This document shows, in pieces, positions 5,901 to 43,640 of a DNA stretch of 64,000 nt. The DNA comes from Lingula anatina. Taxonomy: Eukaryota; Animalia; Brachiopoda. The stretch's first letter is position 1. Every line of letters begins with the position of its first letter. Location: the NCBI GenBank assembly GCA_051362555.1, contig CM120644.1, positions 1,992,954 to 2,056,953 on the forward strand, written 5' to 3'. The position numbers and the translations under genes are program-made. Below the pieces are notes generated by a model. It did not search any database, was not told the origin of the DNA, and saw only the letters and a program-made list of their open reading frames with translations.

Positions 5901-6152
5901 TCATTCATCTATTTATAGATAAGCTTCTATATATCTATTTACACTACTTTAAATTATCCGTAATTTCGTTAAATAATATATTCACCTGTTATACATTTTT
6001 ACATAATATATATATGTTTGTTCCGCACCCACCTGAGTCTCAGTTTTAGTATCAACCCCTCTGTAGACCACTCCAAAGGCACCTTGTCCCAGTTTATCCA
6101 GCATGTTGACCCTGTACCGACCTAACTTCACAACGCACTGACTCTCCGCCAT
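153..6152 (-). CDS. Ser/Thr protein kinase (STK35/PDIK1L-like) fused to Mind bomb REP/SH3-type repeats, paralog A; 3' end lies beyond the window start
   Basis: GT-AG exons in one continuous frame: 6152-6033, 5531-5221, 3949-3702, 3138-2926, 2351-2029, 1420-1325, 982-909, 378-153 (1611 nt). Kinase motifs LGQGAFGVVYRG, IAAK, HRDLKPQN, KVTDFGLSK, GTPCFMSPE, DIFAMG. Repeats LQKGDRVEI..LQENHGGWNTRMKHYLGVKGKV..WSYN and FKKYDIV..LLQEGHGGWNERMKL. Confidence 0.9.
1560..1742. mobile_element. Palindromic MITE with GGCC termini in an intron of kinase A
   Basis: About 65-bp imperfect inverted arms GGCCGACCACAGTTGTAAAGCGATGCTGCT... / ...AGCGGCGTCGCTTTTAAACTGAGGTCGGCC. Confidence 0.7.
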
Positions 6153-13200: not shown

Positions 13201-16200
13201 AAATTATACGAATATAAATGGTGGCCATTGTTCACCAATTCCTGGCAAATTTGAATCTCTATGGTCCAGCATGACTTCAAGAGTACTAGTAGATATATAA
13301 ACGACCTTTTAAATATGAGCACGCATGCGTCTAACCAGTCATAGATTTCTGTTGCGCCTTAAACAAATGTATATTTGTGCATTTGTCTGACCGTGATTTA
13401 ATGCAAACACTATATTTCCATTTATAAGGTTTTTCAGCCGATGTCTCCACTCCTTCAACTCCACCTGGCGGCGATACCACTGATGTAAAAACGACTCCAG
13501 GTGGTGCCACCAGTAGCTCTAGCAGTGACAGCACCAACACCACTACGAGCGAAGAATCTGGGGAAGATTTAGGATATCAGCTTTTACAACAGGCCGTTCA
13601 ACAGATGATGGAAGAAAAGCTTGAAGAGCGGAAGGAGAAGGAGAAGGAAAGCGAAGACCTCCTGAAGCAGATTCGCCGTGGCGCGCCCCTTCTTGAATTG
13701 TTGATGCGGCAAGGTTTGGATGAGAGCTCTGAGGAAAAAGAAGGAGAGGTGATGGATTTCACTGCAAATGGTTTGAAAAACTAAGACTTAGTCCATTAGA
13801 GAGAGTTTGAGGTTGATTGACGTAAAACGTGTATTTCTGTAAAAAAATCGATTATTTACTGATGATGATATAAAGTATACCAGTATTTATGTCAACGTAC
13901 TTTTGAGTAGGCCCTTTCGCATAAATTTTAATATATACAGTTGCAACAATCCATATATTTTGTCGTTGAGAAAATATTTTTTCGTTTAGACAAAGTTTAA
14001 AAATGGCGACCGTGTCCGCGTAACCACTGATTATGTGAAGGCCAAGGAACTGCAAGAAAACTACGGAGGCTGGAATGAATTCATGCGGCCGGTAAGTCTC
14101 GTTTTTTATATCAGTAATTCAATGTCAATATCAATGTCATTCTTAACAATATAGGTACAAGGTCAACATTCTACGTCTCATCATGAACATTAATTACCAC
14201 TGGATGTGCCCTATTTGTAGTAAACCAGCGCTACATTCTTATACATATGACTTAAGATTTTTCTGTTGGTGGTAAGTTGCTGTCTTTTACTGACGCATAA
14301 ACAAACTCCTGTTTCTCCTCTAACACTGTGGAAATGTACTAACAGAATGGTTAACTTAGACTGGGTTCCCATACATAGATCGACCCATCTGGATCGACCT
14401 AACCTCCTGGGGGTTCACGCTAAATTGCTATCAGCTCAAGATGCTTAAATGTCTGTCACGCCTACTGAATCAGCTGGGGGGAGGGGTAAAGATAACTGTC
14501 CCCTAACAGCTTTACTAGGCGTGACAGACATTTAAGCAGGTTACGTTGATAGCAATTTAGTGAGACTCCCCAGGGAGATAGATCGATCCAAATATCAGTG
14601 GGAATGGTACCTAAGCCATCTTACACACTGGCATTGCACTAGAGCAGGTACGTACCAATATATCAGAAGTATATATTCTATCAAACGTTTTTTGTTTGTT
14701 TTAGTATCTTGGCAAAGAGGGGAAAGTGGAGCGAAAAATACTACACGTCGTCAAAGTTGGATTTCCAGACGGACAAATGTAAGGGTTTAATAGTTTAAAG
14801 ATTTAATCTTAAATGGTGGCATGGATTTCTATTTGTAGCAGTGTAGGTTAATTGTTCTAAATTTGTCACGTTGGTATTTTATTAAAAGTTGGATTTGCAG
14901 AACAAAGTGCATATCACCTTTCTGCTAGATAACTTGGTATCAGTGTTGTTTGTGTATCGTTCTTCGTTAGAACATTATGTATATATTAAAATTACATTAG
15001 CATTTCAGCAAACAATTTGCAGTTTAAACATCTCCCACTAGGTGTCTCTCATGACTTCTAACCCCGAAAACTTAATAAATCTGTGAAGACCTTTCATCAA
15101 CTGTAACAGATATGGATATTATTCGCTTAATCCGATGAAATTTAAAATAATATATATATATATAAATATATATATATTGAGTTTCTGTGGGTAATCTACT
15201 TATTATCTTTTTTTTCCGATCTTCAACTTTTGCAGATGGTCTTTTAATCCTGAACTGTTGACGAAACTGACTGAAGATGGCTCTGCGGTCGGTGGAACCT
15301 CTCCAAGCGAAGCTGCAAAAGAAACCAAGCGAGACAAAAACACATCCCACGATGAGATAGTCCGCGGCTTGTTCAAACGGTTTGATGTGGTACAAATAGC
15401 CGAAGAAGCCGAAGTAGTGAAACTTCTGCAAAAAGGGCATGGGGGTTGGAATGAAAAGATGACATTGGTGAGTTTTTTTTACTTGTTTCGAGTGATGAGT
15501 TTTGCTTCTTACAGGTGTACAGTAGTACCATGCAATGCGCTTTTTAGGTAAATTTTCTTGCTTATGTGGATATGCAATTTTAAGCTGATGTACAGTTGTG
15601 GTAGCAAGTTTAACGGTGTGTTTGTACCAAAGCAGTTGCCCATATTTTACAGACACATGTATATATACGAGTATTGTAACACCTTTTCCTCCGTTGTCTT
15701 CTCTTTTAGTGTCTTGGTATCAAGGGACTCATCAACAGAGTGGACAAAGACGGAGACGTTTTTGTGGAGTGCATCAACGGGGACGAGTAAGTTTTGTGTT
15801 TTTTGTTTGCGTGAAAGAGGTTGTAACTTAATTGTCGGTATAAAGTTAAGCAACGTGATAGCCAACGATGAACGCTCTAGATAGTTCTATTTTCCAAACA
15901 TCTGTGGAGCAAATTGATTGATGGCTAAGTTTTATGACAGTCTATATCAAGATTTCTTTATATTTGTGGCGTTTACAGGTACCTGTATGTTGTTTGCTAA
16001 TTTGCTGTCAAGATATTTAGTTTTTGGCAGTGTTGTAAAGAAACTTCTGTCTGTCATAGTGGGGATTTTCTACAATAACCTTAATACTTTCCAGAAAAAA
16101 TACATTCAGTACGTTTTTTAAAATAAGCTGTCTGTTCCATCTTCCAGTTGGACCTTCAACCCTGAAATTCTAATCAAGGTAGAAGATGACCCCAATGCCG

Positions 16201-18750
16201 AAATCGAGGCTGGTGATTTCGTCTTGATAAAAAATGTCACTAAGAGCGAGGCTCAGGAACTCCAGAGAAATCACGGAGAATGGGCTAATGGAATGGAACG
16301 GGTAAACGACTTCGTGTTAGAAAAAATTAATATACGCGCGCGCGCGCGCGCGCGCGCGCGCGTGTGTGTGTTATTGTCAGATTATTCGTTATAATTTTCT
16401 TCAAACCACGAATCAAAATCGCATTATTGCGTGTGTCGCTGCGTGCCACAAGGTTTCTGGTTTGTTGTTTTGCGGAGGCCGATGTGAGTTATAGAACCAT
16501 GCCGTGTGTGGTTCACAGCATGTGGTGCTCATCCTTATCGAGATCATTGGTGTGGTTCCAGAAAAGTGTGTTGATGTCATCTTGCTCCGCTGGATAAAAT
16601 GTGGTTGCCTTGCCAGCCATCTGTTTGATTATTTCGTGAACTTTCAGAATCTGCCAGTTTATAGCTCTCCGTGAACATAACGTTTAACTGACTCTGTAAA
16701 CCAGCTAATAAATTTAGCAAATAATTTACAAATAAGCAATTATGTACTTTTGAATACATGTAGCAAGTCGATTTAGCACGGAATACTATCGTTATAATAT
16801 GCCCTATAGGCATAACTGTTGTTTTTTTCTCCGTGTAATAATGTGATACTAAAACAACGCCAAGTTATAAGCAATTATAGCAGTATGTCTTATTTTGTAA
16901 ATATTAGCGGACCGAGTTTTCTAACACGCCACCGTGCATGTTCAATAGAAAGTTATTACATGTATCAGAGAAAATGGCGAATGGCGTGCAGCAATTATCT
17001 TTTGTGGCATAAATTGATTCTGCTTCCATCTTGGGATCATAATATAAATGTTAACCAAGCGCTAGCTACACGTAGAATGGTTAGTGCGATGCATCATCAA
17101 TGCAACCATAACTTTTCATATAATATTGTAAAATAGTGTTTTTATATGTCTCAGCCTTATGCTCTAATCACTCTGTTCCCTTCTATTATTCACAAACAAA
17201 TATCAATTCATATATTGCCATTGCCTAACATAATTTGCAGAACCTTTCATCAATCACCATCATCATATACGTGCCTATCTCCTGCTCGACTTTTTGTAAC
17301 ATATACATGTATATGGCACAGCGACCTTTTTTGTGGTTTTTGCATGAAAAGATCCAATCTTTAATATTTCATTAATAAACCTATTGTTAAACGCCCGACT
17401 GGTTGATTATTTCTCTATTATACACAAATACACAAGGAATCGTCCTGGAAGTTCAAGAATAACTTAATTTCAGTGGACTGATATCATTCCATCGTACCAT
17501 TTTAGCCGAGTCTGAGCGTGGTTTTCCCTGTTTGCATATCACGGCTAGGGATAGTGAAGACAGTTCATGCAGGGAGGTATTAAAACCTGATACTGTTTTA
17601 TTTCCAGTCTCTAGGACACACAGTCATAGTGAAGGCTGTTTATACACTATTAACACATACCTGTTGTATTTCCAGTCTCTAGGACACACAGGGATAGTGA
17701 AGGCCGTTCTGAAAGGAGACAGGGTCCGAGTGGAGGTGGCAAGACATGTGTGGATCTTCAACAAAAAACTCGTCAAGCTGGTCGCCAAATCAGGTAATTG
17801 AGGGGTGGAGTGGGAGTATAAAGGTGCTATGTTTAGGCTCATAGCCATGCAGTTGGGGTCTTTTTTTTTTCTAAAAAATTGAACAGTTTAACCCCCTCAA
17901 TAAACCCATATTCAGAAGTGGTATACAGATATGATCAAAATATCATTCAGGGTGGGCTTTCCAACCGAAAGGGTGGTTCTTCCGGCTTCTTTCGACCCCC
18001 TCTCCTGACTCCTGGCTCCTGGTTTTGTTGAACTGTGACATACATGTATGTGTTTATACTCTACATCGTATGTCAGTAACTATTTTTGAAAAAAAAATGT
18101 GATCATTAAATATCCTTTAGCTTTCTCGATTTGGACAATATAGATAAATATAATAAAAATTTCACATTTTCTGTTCAATTTTTGTATGTCTCGTCAGTGG
18201 GGGCATTGCTGTTTTTGTCATTTCTAATCATATTCATTGAAATTTGACGTTATTTCTAACTTTCACACCTAACTGATAATAGGATATGTGGGTGTTTAAG
18301 TATAAGATAACGAGAACATGTATGCTGTTGGATTGTCAGGTTACATTTTGATTGAATTATGTCAGAAGTGTAAATTTGGAAATGTGAATTCATTTGTCTA
18401 AGTCATATTCCGATAATTTTCAACTTAAGATTAGAATGCTTTCAAGCAAGCAAATACTTTTTTCTGATATTTTTTGCAAAGAAATGGCAATGCCATTTGA
18501 TGAGTTCACAGCACTCTCCTTGAATTATTGCCAAAACATTTTTCTTCTTATTAATGCTGCACATTTTTTTATGAAGCCCCAATGCGTGTACTTCAATGAT
18601 TAGAAGTAACCAACGATTGTCTGTCTGTAGAAGAAATGCTAGGGTGCAAATATAAAATAAATAATCATCTAAACTACAGTAGTTTGCTTTATATTTTTAA
18701 TTTCAGAGGAGATGTTGGTGGCCATTTTGAAAAGGAAATTTGGCATGTGA
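10242..18750 (+). CDS. Ser/Thr protein kinase (STK35/PDIK1L-like) fused to three Mind bomb REP/SH3-type repeats, paralog B (676 aa)
   Basis: 12 GT-AG exons in frame: 10242-10373, 10871-11181, 12090-12343, 12907-13119, 13429-13748, 13990-14091, 14705-14778, 15236-15467, 15710-15786, 16148-16301, 17676-17793, 18707-18750 (2031 nt). Motifs LGQGAFGVVYRG, VAAK, HRDLKPGN, KVTDFGLSK, GTPCFMAPE, DVFALG. Three repeats of (G)DxV..LQxxHGGW..M..LG..G.V....V.V....W.FNP. The last exon and the exon 5 boundaries are less certain. AATAAA signals near 19243-19316. Confidence 0.9.
12815..12883. repeat. (ATATT)n microsatellite
   Basis: Read directly from the sequence; intronic, just before exon 4 of kinase B. 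Confidence 0.95.
14344..14621. mobile_element. Palindromic MITE in an intron of kinase B
   Basis: Long inverted arms, e.g. CTAAATTGCTATCA..TGCTTAAATGTCTGTCACGCCTA versus TAGGCGTGACAGACATTTAAGCA..TGATAGCAATTTAG. Confidence 0.7.
16335..16370. repeat. (CG)14(TG)4 alternating tract
   Basis: Read directly from the sequence. Confidence 0.95.
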
Positions 18751-21184
18751 AGTGTTTCCGTGTGACTGTAGGTAAAAGACGGCAAGTCATTTGGAAGGCA
18801 GATTATATGAAGACGATGAAACATGTCGTCAAAACTGTAGTGAGTTTTAGTAGCGGAACTTTTTGTATTTTGCCCCATGACAAGCTGAATGCACCAGGAG
18901 CAGTATGCGTTAGATTTTAGTTCGGTATAATACCCAAGCGCGATGTGTGCCAAGAGGTATATCTTCTGAACATTTTTTTGATGTTATATTACTGATGTTT
19001 ATTTCCATCTTGACTCGGCATATTAAAAAGACTAACATGAAAGATAATAAAAGTTTTGTTTTGCTAAGTTGGTGGCGTATTAATTTTTTTCAATGTAATC
19101 ATTTGTATTCCTCGCTATTGTTAAAAGAAATGATCTATCTAACCATCTATCTCGTCAAAAGGAAATATTCACATTTATGAAGATAATTATCAAAAGATGT
19201 TTACTATAACGGTGATGCTTTCCCCGAGCACATGAACTGCTTAATAAATGGAACAAATTCACGCAAAAATGTGTAAATGTGTACATTGTGCATGCATAAA
19301 GAATAAATATAATAAAAAGTATGTTGCCTTTGGTAATAAATATTGCACCGTTGTGATTTGGTGTTTGCATCCATGCAGTGTTTTTATTTATGTTAAGTTG
19401 GTCCCTGTTATACTACAAGTATTTAAAAAGAGAATTCTTTGGAATATCTATTTATGGTAATTATAGGACATATAGTTTACAATACATAAATATATCTACC
19501 AGGTGACATGTAAGTAGAGTCTTCTGATGCGGGAGGTGTACAGGCTCATACAGTGTTTATTGAAAAAAAAAAAAAAAAAAAAAAAACCCAAGGTAGGTTC
19601 CTAGCTCTTCTCCAGATCATGTCCCTTTCAGATTAAATACAAGAAGTGTGAGCGCACCGCTGAACTCCTATTTATAAATGATAGTGTTTGACAGTTGCAG
19701 CTAATTTGAATATAACGTTGTAGTATGTACCAGTAAGTGTGTGCTTCTCAAAGTATAATTTGATAGAAAGTGTACACGTAGATATCTTGCGGGAATGTAT
19801 GCACTTGTTCCATTACTGGTGCTCCATTAGAAATAGGGGTTATTTTCCAAATAAACATAATTTATAATTTTTCTATTGTTTTCTTCGTGCTAGATTATTT
19901 AATTTTGAGATGTTTTCAAAGCAGCAAGTGGGACTTTTTTAAATCTCGCTGCAGGGAGCTTCTTTCCAATTCGAACTGACAAAATTGAATTTACAGTGGC
20001 CCACAAGTGCACTCCAAATTCTAAACGACACTCCCAATTCTAAACCTCACTCCGAATATTTAAACTTCACTCTCAATTCTTAAACCTCACTCCGAATATT
20101 TAAACTTCACTCTCAATTCTTAAACCTCACTCCGAATATTTAAACTTCACTCTCAATTCTTAAACCTCACTCCGAATTCGTAAACCCCACTCCGAATTCG
20201 CAAACCTCACTCCGAATTCGTAAACCCCACTCCGAATTCGTAAACCTCACTCCGAATTGAAAAAGCTCACTCCGAATTCGTAAACCCCACTCGAATTCGT
20301 AAACCCCACTCCGAATTGAAAAAGCTCACTCCGAATTCGTTAACCTCACTCCGAATTCATATTTTAACCCTGTTCACTGCCGTATAAAGTCGGAAGTAAT
20401 ATTCTAAGATGGGCTAGGGGATTTTGCCAATAGAGGGCTTCGTGTGAAAACTAGTTATTTTTCATACTACTTGGTGCGCTGTATTCCCATTCACAAAATG
20501 ATGACGTAGACGTATGACCCTTTTAAGCTCAAGGAAATAGAAGAAATGAAGAAAATAGGGATAAACATACATGTACTTAACAGCAAGTCACAATTAAAAT
20601 ATATTATGTTTACGTGTTTTCTTGTGTGTGTCGTTTTAAGGAATTATACATGTATTATGAATATGAGAACAGAATTACGAGTTGAAACAGCGTTGCGGAA
20701 GGAACAGATTTATGCACTACATGTACATGTATGTAAATAAACGTGCGTTATTTATTATTTACAACTTCAAGCATTTTCACATGATTATTTTGAAATGAAT
20801 GTTTAATACAGATAACATGTTTCAGGGTGTCGACATTGGCTTATATTATTTATAAATGGGCAAAACAATCCGTATTATCATATACTGTAGGCCTACACAT
20901 GTACCTGTTATATAACCGAGTATACTTGATAATAGTAAATGAGCAAAAAGGTTCATTAGCTTGGTTGTTGGATAAATATGAAAATTCTCAGACACAAGCC
21001 TAAAATTTTCCGTACCGTTAGCTTACGGCCAACCTGGTCGAAGGCCTTCATCAGACTGACGTGAGTAGTTGTTCACACTCACTGACCGCTAGATGGTATA
21101 GCGGCCAGGACCCTCTTATGACATTTATAAGAGGGTCCTGGCCGCTATACCATCTAGCGGTCAGTGAGTGTGAACAACTACTCA

Positions 21185-21235
21185 CGTCAGTCTGATGAAG
21201 GCCTTCGACCAGGTTGGCCGTAAGCTAACGGTACG
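21185..21235 (+). ncRNA. Minimal hammerhead-ribozyme-like motif in the Penelope pLTR, variant core; further copies at 23716-23766 (+) and about 21011-21061 (-)
   Basis: CTGATGA (21192-21198), stem II GGCC...GGCC, GTAA in place of GAAA, short palindromic AGCT stem III, then TA. Minimal hammerheads in PLE pLTRs are established knowledge. Confidence 0.6.
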
Positions 21236-21289
21236 GAAAATTTTAGGCTTGTGTCTGAGAATTTTCATATTTATCCAACAACCAAGCTA

Positions 21290-23698
21290 ATGAACCTTTT
21301 TGCTCATTTACGAGAAAATCATGGACAGTCTGAAGTCCAACATTTACGGACCCTTGAGAAAAATCATAAATGTCTGGCGAGATATAAGAACCATCTATGT
21401 TTTTCGCTACGCTGTCGAGACGAAGGGATCACTCCACCCAGTTTGAAACTAAAAAGTTCGCTGAAAACACAGAATGCGATCAAAATCTTGAAGAAAGCAC
21501 AGAAGGACCTACTGAGGGAAAGAATCCGTATTTGTAATGACAAAATCACGACTCTAAGGACAGAGATAGAGAAACATACGGAACATTTTAGAGAACTGTT
21601 GACAGCTGATCAGTACTCATCAGTAGAGGACTTCTGTAAACGGAAATACGAGGCTGCGCATGCGCTTACCAAAGACCGCCATCTTAAAAAGTTTTCAAAC
21701 ATGACAGTGAAGAACAGGACTACGTCGGTGGATTTAAGTGGTTCCCAACTCAAGAAATGGGTAATCAACCGATCGGACCGCATGTTAACTGACACTGAGA
21801 CACGTCTCTTAGCCAAAGGGTTAAATTTTGCCGTAGCTCCGAAGATTCTCCCCGTAGAAGACATCATCGTGCAGACGGAGCTAGCATGTAGAAATCTTGA
21901 CAACACCGAGGCAGCAGATATGCGTGCGGAGATCGTAGGGGCGATCAAGTCATCAAAACCCCCGACAGATAACATCAGCAGAGAAGAACGGAGAGCACTT
22001 CTAGACCTAAAGAAGGACAAGTCCATTATGATCTTGGCCGCTGATAAAGGACGAGCAACAGTGGTTCTAAATAGGACAGACTATGAACACAAGATACAAC
22101 AATTGCTGAATGATGACAACACCTATGAGAAACTAAAGCGTGATCCAACTGCAGCTTATAAACGTAAGTTAACTAAGTGTTTACTACGGCTACAGAAAGA
22201 AGGGAAGCTATCTAGGTCTCAATATGCTCAACTATACCCTACTGCGGAAACACCACCTAAGCTGTACGGTCTTCCTAAGATTCATAAAGAGGGTACACCC
22301 TTAAGGCCTATAGTGTCAAGTATTGGATCTATCACCTACCAGACAGCAAAGTTCCTAGCCAAAATCTTAAACCCACTAGTAGGTAAATCATGCCATCATG
22401 TATTGAACTCGAAGGACTTTGTTGATAAAGTGAAGGATATCATTCTGGGACCACATGAAGCACTAGTTTCATATGATGTGAGTGCACTTTTTACTAGTGT
22501 ACCGGTGGATGATGCTCTTAAAGTGATTAGTTCCAGACTTACGCTAGATCCCACCCTCAATGGACGTACTAATCTATCAGTAGAGGACATCACAGAGCTA
22601 TTAGACATTGTATTGAACACCACATATTTTATCTATAAGGGTGAATTCCATAAACAGAAACATGGAGCAGCCATGGGCAGTCCAATCAGTCCGATCGTGG
22701 CTAATCTGTATATGGAGAACTTTGAGGAAGCCGCACTGGGATCCATGCCCAATCCTCCACGTCTTTGGTTGAGATATGTAGACGACACGTTCACCATCTG
22801 CCACAGAGACCACATAACTGCTATCACCGATTTTATCAACAGCCAAGACCGTAACATCAAGTTCACTAGAGAGCTAGAGGATAACAATTCTATTGCTTTC
22901 CTGGATTCATTGATCACACGTGAAAACGACGGCCACCTGAGTCTGAAAGTCTACAGGAAGGCCACTCATACCAACCAATACCTAAACTTCCAGTTGCACC
23001 ACCCATTACATCAGAAACTGGGGGTAGTAAGAACTCTAAAACACAGGTGCAACACGATCGTGACTAATGAGGAAGACAAGACCTTGGAGAACAAGACACT
23101 AGATGAGGCTCTCTTGATGTGTGGTTACCCACCTTGGGCTCTAAAGACCAAACTTCGCCAGGATAAGACAGCAGTAACTAACTGTGAGCCAACAGATACA
23201 GTCGGAAAAAAACAGCTAGTGATCCTCCCTTATTGTAAAGGAATTTCAGAGAAAGTGTGCAGGATCTACAAGAAGCACAGTGTCAACACAGCTTTTAGAC
23301 CTCAGTGCACATTGAAACAACACCTAGTGGCACCAAAGGACAAAACCCCCCAAGATCACCGTTGTGGGACAATATACAGGATCAATTGCCATGACTGTAA
23401 TTCCTTTTACATTGGTGAGACAGGTAGACAGTTGAAGATCAGGGTGAGTGAACACAAGAAATCAGTGACTGTAGGCAATACCAGCTCTGCCATTTCTGAA
23501 CATGTAATAGACACCGGCCACAGTATAGATTGGAATTCAACTAAGATTCTTGAATCTGAATCATCCGACATCCCGCGAAAAATACGAGAGGCTATCCACA
23601 TCAGCCGACACCAGCCACCCATGAATAGGGACGGGGGGGTTGATCTACCTGACATTTATAAGAGGGTCCTGGCCGCTATACCATCTAGCGGTCAGTGA
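21290..23698 (+). CDS. Penelope-like reverse transcriptase with GIY-YIG endonuclease
   Basis: Open frame (ORF track 21251-23698; first ATG at 21290). Motifs ADKGRATV, LYGLPKIHK, PLRPIVS, SYDVSALFTSVP, GAAMGSPISP, RYVDD, FLD, VYRKATHT; endonuclease GTIYRINCHDCNSFYIGETGR..RVSEH. Confidence 0.95.
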   Translation: MNLFAHLRENHGQSEVQHLRTLEKNHKCLARYKNHLCFSLRCRDEGITPPSLKLKSSLKTQNAIKILKKAQKDLLRERIRICNDKITTLRTEIEKHTEHFRELLTADQYSSVEDFCKRKYEAAHALTKDRHLKKFSNMTVKNRTTSVDLSGSQLKKWVINRSDRMLTDTETRLLAKGLNFAVAPKILPVEDIIVQTELACRNLDNTEAADMRAEIVGAIKSSKPPTDNISREERRALLDLKKDKSIMILAADKGRATVVLNRTDYEHKIQQLLNDDNTYEKLKRDPTAAYKRKLTKCLLRLQKEGKLSRSQYAQLYPTAETPPKLYGLPKIHKEGTPLRPIVSSIGSITYQTAKFLAKILNPLVGKSCHHVLNSKDFVDKVKDIILGPHEALVSYDVSALFTSVPVDDALKVISSRLTLDPTLNGRTNLSVEDITELLDIVLNTTYFIYKGEFHKQKHGAAMGSPISPIVANLYMENFEEAALGSMPNPPRLWLRYVDDTFTICHRDHITAITDFINSQDRNIKFTRELEDNNSIAFLDSLITRENDGHLSLKVYRKATHTNQYLNFQLHHPLHQKLGVVRTLKHRCNTIVTNEEDKTLENKTLDEALLMCGYPPWALKTKLRQDKTAVTNCEPTDTVGKKQLVILPYCKGISEKVCRIYKKHSVNTAFRPQCTLKQHLVAPKDKTPQDHRCGTIYRINCHDCNSFYIGETGRQLKIRVSEHKKSVTVGNTSSAISEHVIDTGHSIDWNSTKILESESSDIPRKIREAIHISRHQPPMNRDGGVDLPDIYKRVLAAIPSSGQ

Positions 23699-24207: not shown

Positions 24208-26475
24208 ACATGTATGGATTATTAGTAGTTTCAATCCTATGTTGAAAAAAATTGGGAGCAGTGTCACTTAATTTGTCCTTTTATTTATAATGGTAAACCT
24301 GTAAATTGCTTCTTGCCCCCAATTTGTGTCCCTGGCGAGAGAAAGTGTGTGTATGTGTGTGTGTGTGTAATTGTGAAAAATACTGAAAATAGCTGGAGAA
24401 GTCAATTGACCTTGTGACGTAAACTGTTGGTTTATTTTCGTAAGGTATGTATCACGCAAACCAAAATGTAACACAATTCGCACTGTTTGCTAAAACTCTC
24501 TCGAACCTTTCACTGGAAGCGCCCAGCTAAAAAAAAATTATTTGTCCCAGACGAATTACTGTTTCATAAGATTTCTCGAAGAGAACTTTGATGAGAATGG
24601 GCATAGTGGAATTGGGAGTGAGCTTTACGAAGAGAACTTTGATGAGAATTGGCATAGTGGAATTGGGAGTGAGCTTTTTGAATTCGGAGTGAGGTTTACG
24701 AATTCGGAGTGAGGTTTGCGAATTCGGAGTGAGCTTTTTCAATTCGGAGTGAGGTTTACGAATTCGGAGTGAGGTTTGCGAGTTCGGAGTGAGCTTTTTC
24801 AATTTGGAGTGAGGTTTGCGAATTCGGAGTGGGGTTTACGAATTCGAAGTGAGGTTTACGAATTCGGAGTGAGGTTTAAGAATTGAGAGTGAGGTTTACG
24901 AATTCGGAGTGAGGTTTAAGAATTGAGAGTGAAGTTTAAGTATTCGGTGTGAGGTTTAGAATTGGGAGTGTCGTTTGGAATTTGGAGTGCACTTGTGGGC
25001 CACCGCACACCAGCAATTAATACCCCAAGGATTGTAACAAGATCTGGTCGTGTGGTGAAACCGCCAGACAGATTAAATTTATAACTTGTGTTTTGTGAAC
25101 GATTCAGTATTAATTTAATACTACATATGGATTTTCATGTTGACTTGCTTTAAAGCAGTTTTAAGTTATAATGCAAAGACTCAGCCAAAGACTTTTCTTT
25201 AATTTTCTTTTCTTTCATTTAAATGGACTGTTAAAGACATTCTCTGTGGAGCATGAAAAGACTTTAAGTTAAAGTGAACACTCACAAAGAACTGTGAACA
25301 CCAAAAACTGAATTTATTTTAATTTACATGCTTTTATATACTTTATTAATCTTAGTTTATTATAAAGAGGGAGATGTAACATTTTATTTGTCTTAAGCTA
25401 CCACCTCTTATTTTACAATGTTGTAAGCGACTTGAATAAAACACGTGTGTTCCAGCATGGCGGCTTACAGAGTTAGCACGTTTATGTTACACCCTGCATA
25501 GTTAGTTATTCCTCCGCATCATTACTCCCCTTTGGAATTTTTTTAATACCGACATTGTTATTCATCAATATCATGTTAAAGTAAGCCATAAATATTTTAT
25601 AAGTTTGCTAACGAGCCGGGAGCACGGTCTTCCCTTAATGGAGAAATGCATAGGGTATTTGATTGGATGTGTAAATTAAAGTTACTAGTACAATTGACCG
25701 CGGGTAAATCCTTAACGATGTTGCTTTTAAGCTTTGAAATCATCTCCACTTTGAATTTTACACAACCCTATGAACGAGCAATATTTTTGGTAAAAATTTA
25801 TCCTCATTTTGGACTCGAGGATTATCATCCAGTTTAGCAAATTTTGTTGACCTAAATGTAGATAAACAAGTGGGACGTATCATTTTCTGTAAACTTAGTT
25901 GCCTAAATTTCAGTTGAACCCGTCATATCGAAACTGCATCTATCAATTGAGACAGCATGAAAAGAAAGACAAATGTATTTTTGTAGATGATACATTAATT
26001 TTGTTCTTTATTAACAGGGATAACTGAAATGAATAAAAATAATAAGCATCTTATCATCCAAATCATTAAAATGCTTTTAATGACGAAGAAATGACAACCA
26101 AATCCACTTTGTTCCCTATAATCCTATTCCCAATGATCGATGATTTTTTTTGCTAGTAATCCCATACACTTCATCATATAAAACAAAACAAACGACTTCT
26201 TTAACGCTTTACTTTTTACTTCGAAACATCTAGCATAGCATCACTATATCTTGTGTGATACCAGAACGTATGTAACATGTATAATGATGACAATTACTAG
26301 TTTAATTGCTCTGAAAGTGCGCAAAAGATGCTCCTTTTTGAATACATAGTTTTAGCTTAGGATAAAACATACATGTACCTATCTTAGAGCTCATAATGTC
26401 AGAATTACTTGCCTCAATATGTATGCACAATCGAACATGTGTAAATCTAACGTCCTATTCCCGCTGATAATATAA

Positions 26476-29521: not shown

Positions 29522-29772
29522 TGTCATGTTGACGCGGCAGGTGACAGTAATGTCGTGTCCATCCTCTACACAGTAGGTGGAAAACTGTAGCGAAGACTGC
29601 AGCACACCTATGCATCAGGATAAGACAAAATATACATATATACAACATGACACAATATCATTAACACATATACTGGTAAGTTACAAGTTGTACGTATTTG
29701 TGAACATTACATTCTTCGGAATAGTTAGAAAAAAAAAAAAAAAAAAACACAGAGCACAGTATAATAATATAT

Positions 29773-30126
29773 CAAACATGCTGAAACTTTTGGTCCGATT
29801 TGTCATTACTGGGAAAATTTGTCCGGACTGGTAATAAAATTTGACTTGGTCGGACCGACAGGAGATTTTAAGAGCAGCAATTTTGAATTTACAGTCATCA
29901 TTCGACATACTTCACTAATAAAATTATATAAAACCCAAACCGTTTTCCCTTCCTTTTCAAACCTATCACATGCACGAACAAAGTAAGCTACCCTAATCGT
30001 ACCGGTAGTATCTGTCTTAAACGAATACGTTGATTTTCGGTCTGACAAATTCCATTCGGTCCAGCAGATTTTTCATGACTGCCGGTCCAAATGTCCGGCC
30101 ATTTTTAACAGTTTTCAGCATGTCTG
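29773..30126. mobile_element. MITE with CA(A/G)ACATGCTGAAA termini
   Basis: CAAACATGCTGAAACT / AGTTTTCAGCATGTCTG, ATATAT on both flanks, internal GGTCCG/CGGAC repeats. Confidence 0.65.
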
Positions 30127-30361
30127 ATATATACAGGTATAGCACCGTACATTATATACAGGTATGGCACTGTACAACAAATACGCAGTAGTTGTTTATG
30201 GGTGACGTGGTCTTCATTTGTGAGATATCTACATGTAAATTTACATTTCTTAATCAAATCTTACCAAATGGTATATTATTTTGTGCTCCCTGCCTTTACT
30301 GACTCGATAAAAATAATAACAAATCGAACATTTCAGTTAAGTGCAGACATACCTTATATAA

Positions 30362-33300
30362 TTACTTTCTTTTGCTTCTCTCGTCATATATGGTGTCCCT
30401 GAATTCTTCGTAGTGTCCCTCCCTTAATTTGCCCAGCAGTGTTGACACTTTCTGCTTCATCTTCGGTTTCCTCCACACCTTTTTCATGTCCTGTGATGCT
30501 ATCACACTTCGGTCCACAAGTCTCTGCAATATCTCACTTAGCGCATCTTCTGGAAGCTCCAAGACCAAGTCTGGCAACCTTATTCATTAATAAATAAGAA
30601 AATATCAACACCCTATGTTCAACAAAATATTTCAAGTCACAAACAGAAGTGAAGCAGAAAGCAATTATTGATCTACATGCAGCAGGTGTCTGTAAACACC
30701 AGTGACATTTTGTGAACTGTATTTAATTTTAAATGCTTGATTAAGTTCATTTTGCAGACTTGCCTCAGAAGCCGAGCTGTCTGTGCATGCCCGTTGTCAT
30801 GGAGAGCACCACAGAACTGGTAGAAAGCAAAATCGTTTTTCCCCTTCAGGTAACTCTGAAGTCTGTTCCCTTGATCTGGTTCCTGGATTGCTGTGATTTC
30901 TTCCTCTGTAAAAATACCAGCTCTGTGGAGTCGACTGAGTATCTTATGAAGGCAGCCAAACCTGCGGATGTTCTTCAAAATAAGGGGAGCATGTTTTTCT
31001 AGAGACATGCAGTGCAAAGCTGTAATTTCTCCTTCAAGAAAAAAAGAAAGGAAATAAAAATAAGCTTGTTTTTTTCTGTTCAAGCAAAATAATAACAATA
31101 CTAACTCCACATAAAATTGAAGTGTTAAATCAATCATTGCTATAATATAATAACAAGTACAATGCAATACATTCATTCAAATGGTTTTACAACGGTGCTG
31201 AAATAAACTTATACACATATATTAGTATTTTGCCATATTTACCCCCTGTCACTGGATAGTAAAAATCTGCAGAAGCCATGAAGTCTGGTTTTTCCTCCGG
31301 ACACGGGTGGTAGGGAACGGGTGCTTCAAGGGGAACGCTCAGAAGAGTGACAGGGGTGTCAAACAACGTCGGTGGATCGTTCTCCTCGTGGACGCAGTGC
31401 GGACAAACCAGAAATTCATCCCGAGGAGAGCCGGGGCATTCTCTCTCTGCCAGAGCTAGAAGATCCTGAAAAATCCTCAGGCTGTGCTCCTTCAGTTGAA
31501 CGGGATCATTGCCACGTATGGAAAGTCGAATAACTCCATTGGGTGGCGCACCAATAACTTCTCTTTCTAAACAAATTCGGAATTGGTTGTCAAGCTGTGC
31601 ATAGAAACCGTCTTTCCAGTCTCGCCTTGATGCCTTAAATTGCCCCAAGTAACCATGAAGATGCACTGCCGCCATTTCGTACAAACCAGTGGGACAGGCG
31701 GCTGGAAAATGAACTTCTAATGAAATCTGTGACTCATCTCTAGCTGGAACAAGGGGCCAACTGGAAGAGACGTCTTCAGGTCGATCTTCTTTCACAAGCC
31801 ACGGGAAATGGTACCTATCTTCATCAGCAACGTAACAAATATCAAAGTTTTCAAGTAAAACCAACATTGCGTCGAGACCTTTTTTTCCAAAGTTGAATCT
31901 CCGCCACAAACATCTTATCATGGTCCTACTGATGATACCTCTTTGCAGTACATCTCTCTTGGCAGATTCGAATTTTGCCTTGGTGAACTCCTTGTTGAAA
32001 GGGTCGGTATCATATACAAGTATAGTATCAATACCATGACGGAGAACCGCCTTCAAAATATCAATGAAAACATCTTGTCTGTGGAATACGAAGGCCTTCA
32101 GCAACGGCTTATCTCTAAACCAAAGAACAGCACCAGTGGCATGCAGGAAACTCAGCACGTCTTCAATTCTTTGAGCATTATCCTCTCCCTGCATTTGTGA
32201 TGATGTCATTTCTGCCATGTTAAGAAGGGAATTCAGCGTTAGGAAATGGTCTTGTTTACTATGCTTTGCCGTCTCGATGTACTCCACCTTCTGCAGCCAA
32301 GAATCTGGCAATATAAAATTCTTTTCTCTTGCTCTTCTAATCAACTCTTTTTCGAGTTCGGTTATCCCATAGCCATTATCGGAACTGATGACAAATACAC
32401 GTTCATTAATACGTGGTGGTGTCTGCATAAGTCTCTTAATTCGCAACATCTTTTCTTTGTATGCCAATTCCGATTCTTCCGATTCTTTGCCTTTGCTTCT
32501 CTTCTCTAATTCCTCAAGCATTGTTCTTAAGTTAGATGCCATATCATCTAAATGGGAATTGAGAGCACATAAAAGCTCGCTCGTGTTTTTCTCTACCTCT
32601 TCTCTGCTCAGGCAATCTGCATGCGTGCCTACAAGCAGTATAGCTGTGTCTGGCGCCCTGCTGTAAACGTTATGTATCCAGCTTCCAATCGCTTTTTGAT
32701 AACCCAAAGATACATTCTTAAGATTGAACACTATCAGAGTGAGAGCCTCTTTGGTTATGAAAAAGTTATGTGCGACCTTGTAGACGTCGTGCCCCCCAAA
32801 ATCATTGATGCTGAGAAAAACATCTTCCTTTGGTGACCATCGAATCTGTTCCATGACGTGAGTTCTGTCCGCCTTTGGAGTTAAGAAAGGCTTACCAGAT
32901 GTCAGAGTTTTTACCAAACTCGTCTTCCCTGCACACGTCTCACCAATAACTTGTACCTGTAGTCTACACGATGATGTTGCCTCGGTTTTGACTAAATCAT
33001 CAAAATATCTTTTAATTGCTTCTATCCCAATTTCTGCTACTTCTTGTGGTGGTTGTTTTAGTTCGTTCCCATGCAAACTGAATATACTGAGATAAGAAAG
33101 TTGACATACTTCCAGGGGCAATCGGGTCAATTTATTTTTATCCAACTGAATAATTTCTAGGTTTTGTAGTTGTTCAATCTGTGGTGGAATTTCAGTGATT
33201 CTATTATGGCAAAGGCCGATCGTCTCCAGTGTCACCAGCTCACATATTGACATCGGGAACTCATCCAACTCGTTCCAAGACAGGTCAAATTCCTTCAGAT

Positions 33301-36142
33301 TGTTTAATTGTGTTATCTGAGGTGGCACTGTGGTGATGTCAGTTGCTGAGAGGTCAAGGATTTCTAGTGTCACAAGCTCACACACCGGCATTGGAAATCC
33401 TTTCAGCTTGTTCAGAGATAGGTCCAATAGCTTCAGATTCTTTAGTTGTGTTATTTGAGGTGGCACTGTGACGATTTTGGTGCTCTTGAGGCCAAGAGTC
33501 TCTAGTGTCACCAGCTTACACACTGATAATGGGAATTTATTCAAGCAGTTCTCAAGCAGGTTTAATTTCTTCAGATCCGTAAGGTTTGCTATCTCAGGTG
33601 GCACTCTTTTGATGTGGTTTTCACGGAGGTCAAGGGTCTCCAGGGTCACCAGCTTACACAATGACATTGCAAATTTTTTCAGCTTGTTCCCAGACAGATC
33701 CAATTCCTTCAGGTTCTTAAGTTGTGTTATCTGAGGTAACACTGTAGTGATGTTGTTTCTTGAGAGGTCTAGGGTCTCCAGTGTCACCACCTCACACACT
33801 GACATTGGGAATTCTTTCAACCGGTTGCCAGACAGGTTCAACTTCTTAAGATTCTTAAGTTGTGTTATCTCAGGTGGCACTGTAGTGATGTTGTTGTCCC
33901 GGAGGTCAAGGTTCTCCAGCGTCACCAGATCACACACTGATAATGGGAATTCCCTCAACTGGTTCAGAAAAAGGTTCAGTTCCTTCAAGTTAAAGAGTTG
34001 TGTTATCTGAGGTGGCACTGCGGTGATGTCGGTGTTCTCGAGGTCAAGGGTCTCCAGTGACACCAGCTCACATACCGACATTGGTAATGTTTTCAGCTGG
34101 TTCCCAGGCAGGTTCAATTTCTTCAGATTTATAAGTTGTGCTATCTGAGGTGGGACTGTAGTGATCTGGGTTCCTGAGAGATCAAGAGTCTCCAAGGTCA
34201 CCAGCTTACACACTGACAAAGGTAAATTTTTCAACTGGTTCCCAGACAAGTTAAATTTCTTCAGATTTATAAGTTGTGCTATCTGAAGTGGCACTGTGGT
34301 GATGTTGGTATCTGAGAGGTCAAGACTCTTCAGTGTCACCAGCTTACGCACTGACATTGGGAATTCTTCTAATTTGTTCAGAGACAGGTTCAAATCCACC
34401 AGACTCTCTAGATGTTTTATTTGGAGTGGCACTTTTGTTATGTTCGCAGCAGAGAGGTCAAGGGTCTCCAATGTCACCAGTTCACACACTAGCATTGGGA
34501 ATTCCTCCAGTTTGTTCCGAGCTAGGTTCAACAGCTTTAGATTCTTAAGTTGTGTCATCTGAGGTGGCACTGTAGTGATGTTGGTACTCTTGAGGTCAAG
34601 AGTCTCAAGGGTCAGAAGCTCACACACTGACATTGGGAACTCTCCCAGCTGGTTCTGAGACAGGTTCAATAACTTCAGATTCTTAAGCTGTCTTATATGA
34701 GGTGGCACTGTAGTGATCCTGGTTGTTGAGAGGTCAAGGGTCTCCAGTCTCACCAGCTCACACACTGATATTGGGAATTCTCTCAACTGGTTGCCAGACA
34801 GGTTTAATTTCTTTAGATTCTTAATTCGTCTTATCTGAGGATTCACTGTAGTGATGTTGGTTTTAGAGAGGTCAAGACTCTTCAGTGTCACCAGCTTACA
34901 CACTGGCATTGGGAGGTCCTTCAGCTTGTTCCGAGCTAGGTTCAATACCTGCAGGTTCTTAAGTTTTGTTATCTTAGGTGGCACTGTAGTGATGTCGGTG
35001 CTTTTGAGGTCAAGGCTCTCCAGGGTCACCAGCTCACACAATGAAACTGGGAATTCCTCCAGCTTGTTCCAAGACAGCATCAGTTCTTTCAGATGCTTAA
35101 GTTGTGTTATCTGAGGGGGCACTGTAGTGATTTTGGTTCCTGAGAGGTCAAGTGTCTCTAGGCTCACCAACTTACACACTGACACTGGAAATTTGTTTAG
35201 TTTGTTATAAGCCAGGTTCAGTTCCTTCAGATTCTGAAGTTGTATTATCCGAGGTGGCACTCTGGTGATGCACGCACCCGAGAGGTCAAGGGTCTCCAGG
35301 GTCACCAGTTCACACAATATTGGGATTTTCTTCAGCTTGTTATCAGACAGGTTTAGTTTCTTTAAATCCGTTAACTTCGTTATCCGATGTGGCACTGTCG
35401 TGATTTTGTTATTCGAGAGGTTAAGGGTCACTAGTGTTTCCAGCTCAAAAAGTGACAGTGGGAATTCCTGTAACCTGTTATTAGACAGGTTTAATTCACT
35501 CAGATTTTTGAGTTGGTTTACCTGTGGCGGAATTGCCGTAATATTAGCACTATCCAGATTAAGGCTTTCCAATGCTTTCATCTTTAATATTGTCAGTGGG
35601 AATTCTTCTAAGGGATTCCGGGAGATGTCTATTTTCGCCAACTTGCACAGTCTTTCCACATCTGGCCTTATGGTCGTTATGTTGTTGTTCTTTAGATCAA
35701 GTTCCTCCAACGTCACGAGGCTACATACTGGTAGAGGTATCTCTGTCAGCTGGTTTCCTGATAAATTAAGCTTCCTCAAATGTTTGGGTATGCTTATGTT
35801 TGGCGGAATCAAAGTAATGCTACAGTTGGACATGTCTAAATTTTCAATTGCCTCCAGCCTAAATATTGTAACAATGATGTCTTCGTTCTTAAGCCTAGTA
35901 TTGGAAATATTAAGTGTATTTAGTTTCGTACAACGTAGTATGCTATTTGGAAGTCTGCATCCTAGTCCTCTTAGGTTTAACTCTGTCCATATTTCCACCT
36001 GATCCGTGCCTGGTCCTTGGTAACTGGGATCTTCATCCAGTTTATTAAGAAAATCTAGTTTTTCCTGATCTCCATATTTGATTGAGTGCTCATCCTTTTG
36101 GCAGCATAAGACATTACGCACTTGGCTTAAACTTGAACCCAT
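30362..36142 (-). CDS. Roco protein, MFHAS1-like: LRR array, Roc GTPase, COR and tandem CARD/death-fold-like domains (about 1794 aa)
   Basis: Exons 36142-31243 (4900 nt), 31031-30764 and 30578-30362, phase-consistent (5385 nt). About 40 LRRs. Roc motifs: G1 IGETCAGKTS, G3 NDFGGH, G4 VGTHAD, G5 VISS. COR with LSFLHATGAVLWF, YHFPW and CPHC. C-terminal helical domains ILSRLHRAGIFTEEEITAI..AFYQFCGALHDNGH and ILQRLVDRSVI..KVSTLL..YEEF. The 3' end could extend by a further exon. Confidence 0.9.
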
Positions 36143-37277
36143 TTTTCTAATCAGTTAGATTCTTCAAAGACTTTACTTTACTATAGGATGAAGGCAGCAT
36201 ACTAATGGTAGTGATTGTTGGCTACTTTATTGTTCTCTACCAGCACACAAAGATACTGGGTTGGCGACATTTTTCCTGCACTTAGCTGAGTGTCGGTGCC
36301 TTCACTGTTCTCTACTTCTACAGCACACAAAAGTACCAGTATGTCGAGTGTCTCCCTACATAAGACTAGATGCTGTTTCCTTAAATGGTAATTTAAAATG
36401 ACAAACGATGTATTGGTGTTCAGACTGCCTTCTTGTAATGGTCTAAGCCTGAAGGATCATTTATTGTTCTCTACTAGCACCCAAAGGTGCCAGTATGTTG
36501 ACTGCCCCCCTGTTCCCTGTATTAGACTGGGTGCTGTATGATTTCAAGAATTTGATTAAAAAAAAAGTAGTGAAACAGAGTACCCCCCAGAAAAATACAT
36601 TCAATTTGAACCATACAGTAGGTAACAGCCAAAGGGAGATATATATTGTATCTTATATAATGTTCTTAGTGATAAAAGTACAATTCATCTCATTAAAGTT
36701 ATATTTCATTAAAGTTGTATTTCAATTAACATCACTTGTGGTTGTTTAACTGGACATGCACGGAGGAGTTATTTATAGTTTAAAGAAAATTTATTCGTGG
36801 GAGCAGAAGGGACGTGGGTTATGCAGGATGAAAGCAAATATGCACGATCATAGGAATCCAGTCTGTTTTACCTTTGTAAGAAATAGACACAATTGCTATC
36901 AGATGTAATTTTATTGTAGTAGGTGTCTGAAGGTCTTTAACGCTAAAGGTGGGGTCAACAAACTGACTATAGAGGGATCAACAGAATCCATTAGAATATA
37001 TGAACGATTATGAAATTTATGAAAGTTCCGCTTGCGTGTAACGCAAATAACGCTGGTGAGGGTGGTGCACATCCTTTACAACGACCTGAAGCAGACGTTA
37101 ATATGCTGCTCCAGCTGCCAAAAGTTAGATAGTTATAACGTTAGATATTCACTACACTTGTTAGGCAAGGGTTTTTGTTTTAATAGGCCTATTAGTAACG
37201 AACGAACGAACTTCACGAGAAAACTTAGCGATTGGTTAACAATATCTTTCTAAAACACCACTCGAAGTTCGATAGTT

Positions 37278-42639: not shown

Positions 42640-43640
42640 ATTTTCAGAACAGGGATTTGGACAAAGATGAGAGAAGTACAGGACACAACACTAAAGAGTT
42701 TGGCTGCACATTTACCACAGGTTTTGTAACATTCGAGAGCAGAAAATACTGTACGCAATACTCATCCGTATTTCAGAGATGGAAACAATGAGCGAGTAAT
42801 TTCGAAGAAGTAAAATTTTTTTGCAGCTCACACGCATCACATTGCACTTTACATGTTGAGTTTGATACAGCAGTCTTGTAAACCAGGAACGATTCAAGAT
42901 GTTAAATATGGTTTAAAATGGACACATGAAATAGCAGGTATAAATCCAAATCCTTCCGATAATCCTATGATTAATAATATTGTTGAAGCTTCAAAGAGAA
43001 TGTCAAGCAAGAAAACAGTAAAAAAGGAAATAGTTACTCCGAAAATGTTAGAAATGATGATTAACAATTTCGCCAATACAAATGCTAGTTTAGCAGATTT
43101 ACGAGATGTTTGTATATGCCTTATATCATTTGCAGGTTTTTTTAGATATAGCGAGGTATGCAATATTAAAAGATCGGATGTTTCTTTCACAGAACAATAT
43201 TTTGAGATATTTATAGAAAAAAGTAAAACTGACATTTACAGGGACGGATCTACTGTTATGATTGCTAAAACTGGGAAATCTACATGTCCATTTACTTTTT
43301 TACAAAGATATTTGGAAGCAGCTAACATTGAAGAACATTCAGATAATTTTATATTTAGACCAGTGAAATATTTAAAGAAATCCAAAAAGCACATGTTACG
43401 TAAAAACGGGAAAATGTTATATACAAGAATAAGAGAAGTTTTTTTTACAAAAGCTAGAAATATTAGGATTTGACAGACAAAAGTTTGGTTTACATAGTAT
43501 GCGTGCGGGAGGAGCGACAGCGGCAGCAAATTTTGGAGTAAAAGACCGTTTGTTTAAAAAACATGGACGTTAGATTTCTGATAAAGCGAAAGATGTATAT
43601 ATTAAAGACAGTTTTGTAAAAAAGGATTCAAGTGTCTCTA
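42640..43640 (+). pseudogene. Tyrosine recombinase (integrase) of the DIRS/PAT element, frameshifted
   Basis: ORF 42853-43473 carries the first catalytic R (FFRYSE) and K (KSKTD). HSMR follows in another frame at about 43493, and there is a stop at the HGR-W position. Confidence 0.85.

What the first reader, a model, noticed from the sequence alone, without database searches (positions are those of the whole stretch)
30362..36142. Membrane-targeted LRR-Roc-COR protein ending in tandem CARD-like domains: an NLR-like GTPase receptor
Seen: MGSSLS (G2, S6) plus CC at residues 13-14, about 40 LRRs, an intact Roc, COR, no kinase, and two extra exons that each encode a helical domain with death-fold-like patterns. 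Established: MGxxxS is the N-myristoylation consensus and nearby Cys residues are often palmitoylated; Roco proteins dimerise via COR; vertebrate MFHAS1 is LRR-Roc-COR without such a tail; CARDs nucleate caspase or NF-kB signalling. Inference: a sensor-switch-effector immune receptor that uses Roc-COR where NLRs use NACHT.
Basis: partly seen in the sequence, partly recalled or inferred. Interest (0 to 1): 0.78.

Follow-up and report, generated by a model that had tools for sequence, protein, structure and literature searches.

The report
Brachiopod Roco GTPase with fused double-CARD
This lamp-shell (Lingula-like) gene encodes about 42 leucine-rich repeats, an LRRK2-type GTP-binding switch and a tail predicted to fold as one complete plus one fused, incomplete cell-death adaptor (CARD) domain; it belongs to a family of about 30 similar genes and is likely an inside-the-cell immune sensor, a role already proposed for similar proteins elsewhere but untested.

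Summary
Three minus-strand exons (36142-31243, 31031-30764, 30578-30362; the second intron is GC-AG) join in frame to 1794 aa: MGxxxS/CC, about 42 LRRs, intact Roc, COR, no kinase, a 161-aa tail. RefSeq Lingula anatina paralogs join the same exons. RNA reads span both introns (36 and 5 reads) but come mostly from paralogs or divergent alleles. Models of two paralog tails give a full six-helix CARD (Apaf-1 CARD, Z 13.6) and a second, five-helix CARD-like unit that shares one helix with the first. 28 of 35 Roc-COR hits are Lingula 'MFHAS1 homolog'/uncharacterized models; 23 carry a CARD tail, so this is one member of an expanded family. LRR position 8 shows excess amino-acid change in both repeat classes, as in variable receptors. 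The N-myristoylation motif is confined to a three-member subclade; the CC is unique to this copy. Roco+CARD (Trichoplax) and LRR-Roco as NLR analogues (brown algae, bacteria) are published, so this is a new variant of a known kind, not an NLR. Ligand, partner and membrane location are untested. Lingula is reported to lack Apaf-1 and has six CARD caspase-Y genes, the plausible targets.

The parts
31243..36142 (-). Coding exon A (4900 nt): N-terminus, LRRs, Roc, COR; GT donor follows
36101..36142 (-). N-terminal MGxxxS motif plus C13-C14 (predicted myristoyl/palmitoyl anchor)
   Evidence: MGxxxS also in XP_013416217.1 and XP_013389778.1, CC only here
33023..35974 (-). LRR solenoid, about 42 repeats of 23 aa, alternating two types (46-aa/138-nt unit); position 8 hypervariable
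32333..32956 (-). Roc GTPase domain with G1, G3, G4 and G5-like motifs (end boundary approximate)
   Evidence: LRRK2 Roc E 1e-13
31361..32308 (-). COR-A and COR-B
   Evidence: both just under or below Pfam cut-off here; COR-A above cut-off in paralogs
31283..31417 (-). CPHC...C segment after COR, conserved across the Lingula family; possible metal site (inference)
31032..31242 (-). Intron 1, 211 nt, GT-AG, phase 1
   Evidence: 5 paralog-type reads in X9, net skip 211 (table 5c); same join in RefSeq models
30764..31031 (-). Exon B (268 nt): CARD unit 1, six helices predicted
30579..30763 (-). Intron 2, 185 nt, GC-AG, phase 2
   Evidence: 36 reads in X7, X8, X9 skip 185 nt here
30362..30578 (-). 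Exon C (217 nt incl. stop): CARD-like unit 2, five helices predicted, 8-aa in-frame gap versus paralogs

Best explanation
The gene encodes a kinase-less LRR-Roc-COR GTPase ending in a tail predicted to fold as a fused double CARD, and it likely works as one of a diversified set of intracellular immune sensors: the variable LRR face would bind a foreign or damage ligand, this would shift the Roc-COR nucleotide and monomer-dimer state, and the clustered CARDs would recruit a CARD adaptor or CARD caspase. Shown: exon structure, domain order, intact G motifs, family expansion, LRR variability, splicing of family transcripts. Predicted: the tail fold, modelled on paralogs (55% and 78% identical over the tail alignment), not on this copy. 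Inferred from known Roco and CARD biology: the dimer switch, CARD-CARD recruitment, and caspase-Y or NF-kB output. N-myristoylation of this subclade is plausible but untested.
For: In-frame 1794-aa join. The same two junctions occur in RefSeq models, e.g. XP_013400285.1 at 78% identity over 182 aligned positions across both junctions. RNA joints at both introns. Paralog tail model has pLDDT 92 and pTM 0.85 with 10 helices. Unit 1 matches Apaf-1 CARD at Z 13.6, rmsd 1.6, 87 aligned, and nearly all 50 listed rows are death folds. Unit 2 alone matches NLRC4, ARC, ASC, CARD8 and NOD1 CARDs at Z 9.2-9.5, rmsd 2.3-3.3, about 80 aligned. The tail profile's top PDB sequence hit is RIP2 CARD, E 1e-3. 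Of the 46 cluster-representative hits, 2 are seed paralogs and 43 of the other 44 carry Pfam CARD. Family: 28 of 35 hits are L. anatina; 7 have the two-unit tail, 16 one CARD, 5 none in the model. The two-unit group is one clade (SH-aLRT 99, quick tree). LRR motif counts run from 6 to 42 in 13 proteins examined. At LRR position 8, pN is 0.64 and 0.63 in the two repeat classes against pS 0.33 and 0.39; neutral simulations reach 0.63 in at most 0.7% of sites. Passages of PMC11463336: no APAF-1 detected in L. anatina, six caspase-Y paralogs, CRADD present.
Against: No ligand, partner or activity is shown. Only 13 of 5653 reads laid in X7-X9 were 99% or more alike, and X1, X4 and X2 had almost no coverage, so expression of this exact copy is unproven. 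At 90% likeness neither joint was listed. Window CARD hits are under the Pfam cut-off. Foldseek gave no E <= 0.001, and Z 9-13 for helical bundles is within the tool's caution range. Unit 2 lacks a separate sixth helix and has lost 8 aa in this copy. The selection test uses pairwise counts among non-independent repeats, and the site was picked after inspection; over six beta-face positions together pN/pS is about 1.0. In C. tepidum Roco the GTP state is monomeric (PMC6337361 passages), so 'activation = dimerisation' is not established. Lingula retains classical CARD-NACHT-LRR NLRs (PMC11508797 passages).
Confidence: 0.52

Rival explanations
1. MFHAS1-like scaffold or regulator: the protein modulates an existing CARD or TLR pathway, possibly as an inhibitor whose incomplete second CARD caps the first or terminates a filament, rather than sensing a ligand itself.
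For: Same LRR-Roc-COR core as MFHAS1/MASL1, whose described roles are regulatory (PMC4104024 passages). Unit 2 is predicted to be incomplete and rigidly packed on unit 1. CARD-only inhibitors such as ARC and ICEBERG are among the structural neighbours.
Against: About 30 paralogs, LRR motif counts of 6-42 and a hypervariable LRR position fit receptors better than a housekeeping scaffold.
Confidence: 0.25
2. The family is real, but this copy is a weakly expressed or decaying duplicate, as is common in birth-and-death immune families.
For: Few near-identical reads; 8-aa gap in the last helix; retroelement fragments flank the gene.
Against: A 5.4-kb reading frame without a stop or frameshift, intact G motifs, and purifying selection on LRR core positions (dN/dS 0.17). 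The runs come from other individuals, which may explain the read mismatch.
Confidence: 0.13
3. The main product stops in intron 1, giving a CARD-less, plain MFHAS1-like protein of 1651 aa; the CARD exons are minor.
For: The ORF runs on through intron 1 to a stop at 31187. One close RefSeq model, XP_013389778.1, ends that way. Intron 1 has only 5 listed reads.
Against: 7 of the 8 models in the same clade splice to exon B. Exon B and C reading frames are conserved, and intron 2 is spliced in 36 reads.
Confidence: 0.07

Closest known systems
Lingula anatina RefSeq 'MFHAS1 homolog' / uncharacterized models (XP_013416217.1, XP_013400285.1, XP_013414975.1, XP_013419969.1)
   Same: Same LRR-Roc-COR-CARD layout and the same two tail junctions; 65-77% identity over Roc-COR.
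   Different: This copy has far more LRRs (42 motifs versus 15-26 in the close paralogs counted), the CC pair, and an 8-aa shorter last helix. The records' names do not mention the CARD.
Trichoplax adhaerens ROCO repertoire (Civiero et al. 2014, PMC4104024; passages and figure legends read)
   Same: Roc-COR combined with CARD, death domains and LRRs in an expanded family of at least 17 genes.
   Different: Different phylum. No fused double CARD, selection on LRRs or lipid anchor is mentioned in the passages read.
Brown-algal LRR-ROCO candidate immune receptors (PMC3341825, abstract and one results section; PMC11378527, passages)
   Same: Expanded LRR-Roc-COR family, variable LRR number, selection on the LRR face, proposed receptor role.
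   Different: Algal LRRs are one exon each and shuffled. Here all LRRs lie in one exon and vary by 138-nt tandem units, and there is a CARD effector tail.
Bacterial LRR-AP-GTPase(Roc)-COR-effector counter-invader proteins (Kaur et al. 2021, PMC8195603, section 15 read)
   Same: Same order: fast-evolving LRRs, Roc-COR, variable C-terminal effector or adaptor domain; explicitly likened to NACHT receptors.
   Different: Prokaryotic; effectors are TIR, caspase, GT4 and others.
Vertebrate MFHAS1/MASL1
   Same: LRR-Roc-COR without a kinase (PMC4104024 passages).
   Different: No CARD tail is described, and it is one of only four human Roco genes. Orthology was not tested here.
Animal NLRs with CARD effectors (NOD1/NOD2, NLRC4) and RIG-I tandem CARDs
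   Same: Sensor-switch-CARD logic; both tail units resemble their CARDs.
   Different: GTPase instead of NACHT, and reversed domain order. The whole tail does not superpose on RIG-I 2CARD (rmsd about 15).

Membership tests
Roco proteins | Roc GTPase domain with G1/G3/G4/G5 motifs | tested here: met
   Pfam Roc 45.8 bits versus cut-off 27; motifs; LRRK2 Roc E 1e-13
Roco proteins | COR directly after Roc | tested here: met
   COR-A E 1.4e-8, COR-B E 4e-4 in order; at or under cut-off here, COR-A above cut-off in 65-77% identical paralogs
Roco proteins | GTP hydrolysis and nucleotide-dependent monomer-dimer cycle | not testable with these tools
   Known for C. tepidum Roco (PMC6337361 passages)
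MFHAS1/MASL1 subfamily | LRR-Roc-COR without kinase | tested here: met
MFHAS1/MASL1 subfamily | Orthology to vertebrate MFHAS1 | not tested
   No vertebrate MFHAS1 among the hits or in the tree; the name comes from RefSeq labels
LRRK1/2 or DAPK1 | Kinase domain in the same chain | tested here: not met
   No kinase hit or HRD motif in the 1794-aa join
NLR | NACHT/NB-ARC ATPase | tested here: not met
   No NACHT or NB-ARC hit at E <= 0.1; the chain is accounted for by LRR, Roc, COR and CARD
NLR | N-terminal effector and C-terminal LRR | tested here: not met
   Order is reversed
NLR | LRR sensor plus death-fold effector (works-like criterion) | tested here: met
CARD (unit 1) | Six-helix death fold of CARD type | tested here: met
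   Paralog model, Apaf-1 CARD Z 13.6, rmsd 1.6, 87 aligned; paralogs pass the Pfam cut-off, the window exon does not
CARD (unit 2) | CARD-type fold and sequence | tested here: met
   Z 9.2-9.5 to five CARDs; hhalign 93% to unit 1 and 95% to single-CARD paralogs; RIP2 CARD E 1e-3
CARD (unit 2) | Complete, independent six-helix bundle | tested here: inconclusive
   Models show a shared first helix and one long last helix instead of H5+H6; shallow alignments, paralog sequences
N-myristoylated/palmitoylated proteins | Met-Gly start with small residue at position 6 (consensus recalled, not from a call) | tested here: met
   Window and both nearest paralogs in the tree; absent from the other 26 Lingula models
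N-myristoylated/palmitoylated proteins | True translation start and actual acylation | not testable with these tools
   An AG lies 5 nt before the ATG, read depth there is about 1 or less, and an upstream coding exon is not excluded

The most novel reading that the evidence does not exclude
Lingula, reported to have lost Apaf-1 and caspase-2 while multiplying caspase-Y, uses a rapidly diversifying family of about 30 LRR-Roc-COR-CARD GTPases as ligand-specific caspase-activating platforms: a GTP-switched inflammasome or apoptosome. This subclade adds a membrane anchor and a rigid ten-helix double CARD in which two CARDs share one helix, a death-fold arrangement I did not find among solved structures.
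Probability: 0.27. Interest if true: 0.75.

Novelty: new variant of a known kind. Interest (0 to 1): 0.46.

Why it matters
Roco proteins have been proposed as NLR analogues since 2011-2014, but I found no ligand-to-output demonstration in the papers read. This family offers a compact test case: a kinase-less Roco with a recognisable CARD output, natural variation in the LRR face, and candidate caspase-Y targets in an animal reported to lack Apaf-1. It would show how a Roc-COR monomer-dimer cycle drives an output other than a kinase, which bears on LRRK2 and MFHAS1 mechanism. The shared-helix double CARD may be a new death-fold arrangement. The gene family is already in RefSeq with Pfam CARD hits, so the gain is interpretation rather than discovery.

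Tried and rejected
No whole genome is held for this window, so there is no paralog count for this assembly; family counts come from RefSeq L. anatina hits and are lower bounds. No RNA holder was listed for the stretch; runs were added by species label. The ESM Atlas gave no answer. Exon B alone found nothing useful in PDB by sequence. Foldseek gave no E <= 0.001 for either model, and no solved tandem-CARD structure superposed on the whole tail; an absent match does not show a new fold.

A complex prediction of a paralog tail with CARD 1 of XP_013400484.1, a Lingula two-CARD protein, gave no answer (score 0.00); that is no evidence either way. A search for relatives of that protein at 146-468 aa returned only itself, so no Lingula caspase CARD was in hand.

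My recollection that RIP2 CARD is five-helix was not confirmed: PMC4739766 describes six alpha-helices, so I do not use it as precedent. Apparent RNA joints inside the LRR region are not splicing: all 7 checked are multiples of 138 nt, i.e. paralog reads in shifted register. No second Roco copy lies in the window.

The tree is the quick version. It left out P0034-P0036 (no anchor motif) and P0038 (no G1), and used only the intact Roc-COR of P0010.

Eight literature searches showed no paper describing this Lingula family. Gerdol et al. 2018 on Lingula immunity (PMID 29278680) is not held and may already describe it. No supplements were read; those of PMC8195603 and PMC11463336 may list these architectures.
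Full report
Gene structure. The minus strand holds a 1655-codon open frame at 31187-36154. Its first ATG is at 36142 and reads MGSSLS with cysteines at 13 and 14. A GT donor after 31243, an exon at 31031-30764, a GC-AG intron and an exon at 30578-30362 join in frame to 1794 aa with a single terminal stop.

Domains. Pfam finds LRRs, Roc (1063-1176, above cut-off), COR-A (35.2 bits, cut-off 35.3) and COR-B (below cut-off), and no kinase or NACHT. G1, G3, G4 and a G5-like stretch are intact, and the closest solved sequences are LRRK2 Roc domains (E 1e-13). Forty LRRs lie in a 23-aa register, 42 by motif count. They alternate between two types as a 138-nt unit in 16.6 copies, all inside one exon.

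Origin and family. A Roc-COR search gave 35 hits, 28 of them Lingula anatina RefSeq models named 'MFHAS1 homolog' or uncharacterized, the best at 76-77% identity. The window is therefore from Lingula or a close brachiopod (inference). Of these 28, 18 carry a precomputed Pfam CARD. By alignment 7 have the two-unit tail (one with a divergent end, two fused double models), 16 have one CARD and 5 models end without one. An eighth two-unit protein, XP_013400285.1, is 78% identical over 182 aligned positions and crosses both junctions exactly as predicted. In a quick tree of 34 Roc-COR rows the two-unit proteins form one group (SH-aLRT 99), and the window sits with XP_013416217.1 and XP_013389778.1 (98). 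The tail diverges faster than the switch: 77% over Roc-COR but 44% and 40% over the tail units against XP_013416217.1.

Splicing. At 80% likeness, 36 reads in runs X7, X8 and X9 skip 185 nt at intron 2. Five reads in X9 give a net 211-nt skip at intron 1, with paralog-type letters beside the joint. Only 13 of 5653 reads laid in those runs are 99% or more alike. X1, X4 and X2 barely cover the gene, and at 90% likeness neither joint was listed. So family transcripts are spliced as predicted, while expression of this copy is not shown.

Tail fold. The window exons score only weakly for CARD (E 8e-4 and 0.028). I modelled paralog tails, not this copy. The 173-aa tail of XP_013414975.1 gives 10 helices at pLDDT 92 and pTM 0.85. 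Residues 3-94 match Apaf-1 CARD (Z 13.6, rmsd 1.6, 87 aligned), followed by caspase-9, CED-4 and Dronc CARDs. The second unit of XP_013400285.1, folded alone (pLDDT 86), matches NLRC4, ARC, ASC, CARD8 and NOD1 CARDs (Z 9.2-9.5). The tail profile's best PDB sequence hit is RIP2 CARD (E 1e-3), and the two units align with each other (hhalign 93%), which suggests exon duplication. Unit 2 begins in the sixth helix of unit 1 and ends in one long helix, so the tail is a complete CARD fused to a five-helix CARD rather than two free CARDs. This copy lacks 8 residues of that last region. Foldseek E-values were not significant and the Z-scores are moderate for helical bundles; the case rests on agreement between sequence and structure.

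Sensor signature. LRR motif counts range from 6 to 42 among 13 family members examined. Among 30 core repeats of this gene, scaffold positions are conserved (dN/dS 0.17). Position 8, just before the conserved Asn/Thr, has pN 0.64 and 0.63 in the two repeat classes, against pS 0.33 and 0.39. Neutral simulations reach that value at no more than 0.7% of sites, and the same position leads in both classes. The caveats are non-independent repeats, a site chosen after inspection, and a ratio near 1.0 over six beta-face positions together. Placing this position at the edge of the concave face rests on general LRR geometry (recalled); brown-algal ROCOs show selection on that face (PMC3341825, section 23 read).

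Membrane anchor. MGxxxS occurs in the window and in both of its nearest paralogs despite otherwise different N-termini, and in none of the other 26 Lingula models. The CC pair is found only here. An AG lies 5 nt upstream of the ATG and RNA depth there is near 1, so an upstream coding exon is not excluded. I put myristoylation at roughly even odds, and it is not a family trait.

Mechanism. Most likely (0.52) ligand binding to the LRRs shifts the Roc-COR nucleotide and oligomer state, clustering the CARDs so that they recruit a CARD adaptor or caspase. All of these steps are inferred. The direction of the switch is open: C. tepidum Roco is monomeric with GTP and dimeric when nucleotide-free, while membrane-bound LRRK2 is dimeric and more active (PMC6337361, passages). 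Candidate targets exist. L. anatina is reported to lack APAF-1 and caspase-2 and to have six caspase-Y genes and CRADD (PMC11463336, passages). A Lingula two-CARD protein, XP_013400484.1, scores E 1e-18 to 1e-20 against a profile of the single-CARD paralogs. Rivals are a regulatory or inhibitory scaffold (0.25), a decaying copy (0.13) and a read-through product (0.07).

What is known. Roc-COR with CARD, death and LRR domains is described in Trichoplax, and a NOD-like receptor role for Rocos is suggested in the same review (PMC4104024, passages and legends). LRR-ROCOs are candidate receptors in brown algae (PMC3341825; PMC11378527, passages). Bacterial LRR-Roc-COR-effector proteins are likened to NACHT receptors (PMC8195603, section 15), and Aplysia has TIR-ROCOs (PMC9334734, passages). 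Lingula also has true CARD-NACHT-LRR NLRs (PMC11508797, passages). The protein is a Roco and not an NLR, though it likely works like one. Eight searches showed no description of the Lingula family or of the shared-helix double CARD. Gerdol et al. 2018 could not be read (seen only as a reference in PMC6321704). Unchecked notes from this scan report similar Roco-CARD families in other animals and Roc-COR-caspase fusions in this genome; they are leads only.

Verdict. Observation confirmed; interpretation partly supported; new variant of a known kind; interest 0.46.

Noticed in passing
window 3655-6203 (-) and 10838-13142 (+): Two similar multi-exon Ser/Thr kinase genes in opposite orientation (Pfam Pkinase E 1e-13 to 1e-21 on four exon ORFs), each followed by exons with Mind-bomb SH3 repeats (111-401 minus; 15195-16394 plus). 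Separate genes, about 17 kb or more from the Roco.
   Followed up: partly
window 21224-23698 (+): 824-aa ORF with reverse transcriptase and GIY-YIG domains, a Penelope-like retroelement (class name recalled), flanked by inverted 20-nt tandem arrays at 20010-20358 and 24660-24989.
   Followed up: no
window 42814-43473 and 52293-52859 (+): Tyrosine-recombinase and reverse-transcriptase fragments, likely DIRS-like elements (class name recalled).
   Followed up: no
window 29607-30371: Two reads in X8 join 29607 to 30371 without splice-site ends (table 5c), suggesting that the repeat-bearing stretch just after the stop codon is absent in another allele or paralog.
   Followed up: no
P0034 (Branchiostoma hybrid record): LRR-Roc-COR ending in a GT4-conflict glycosyltransferase instead of a CARD: the same core with a swapped effector.
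   Followed up: no
P0051 = XP_013400484.1 (L. anatina): 267-aa two-CARD protein whose CARDs resemble those of the single-CARD Rocos; candidate adaptor.
   Followed up: partly
P0003 and P0010 (L. anatina, neighbouring LOC numbers): Models that contain two Roco units head to tail, probably fused annotations of tandem genes.
   Followed up: no
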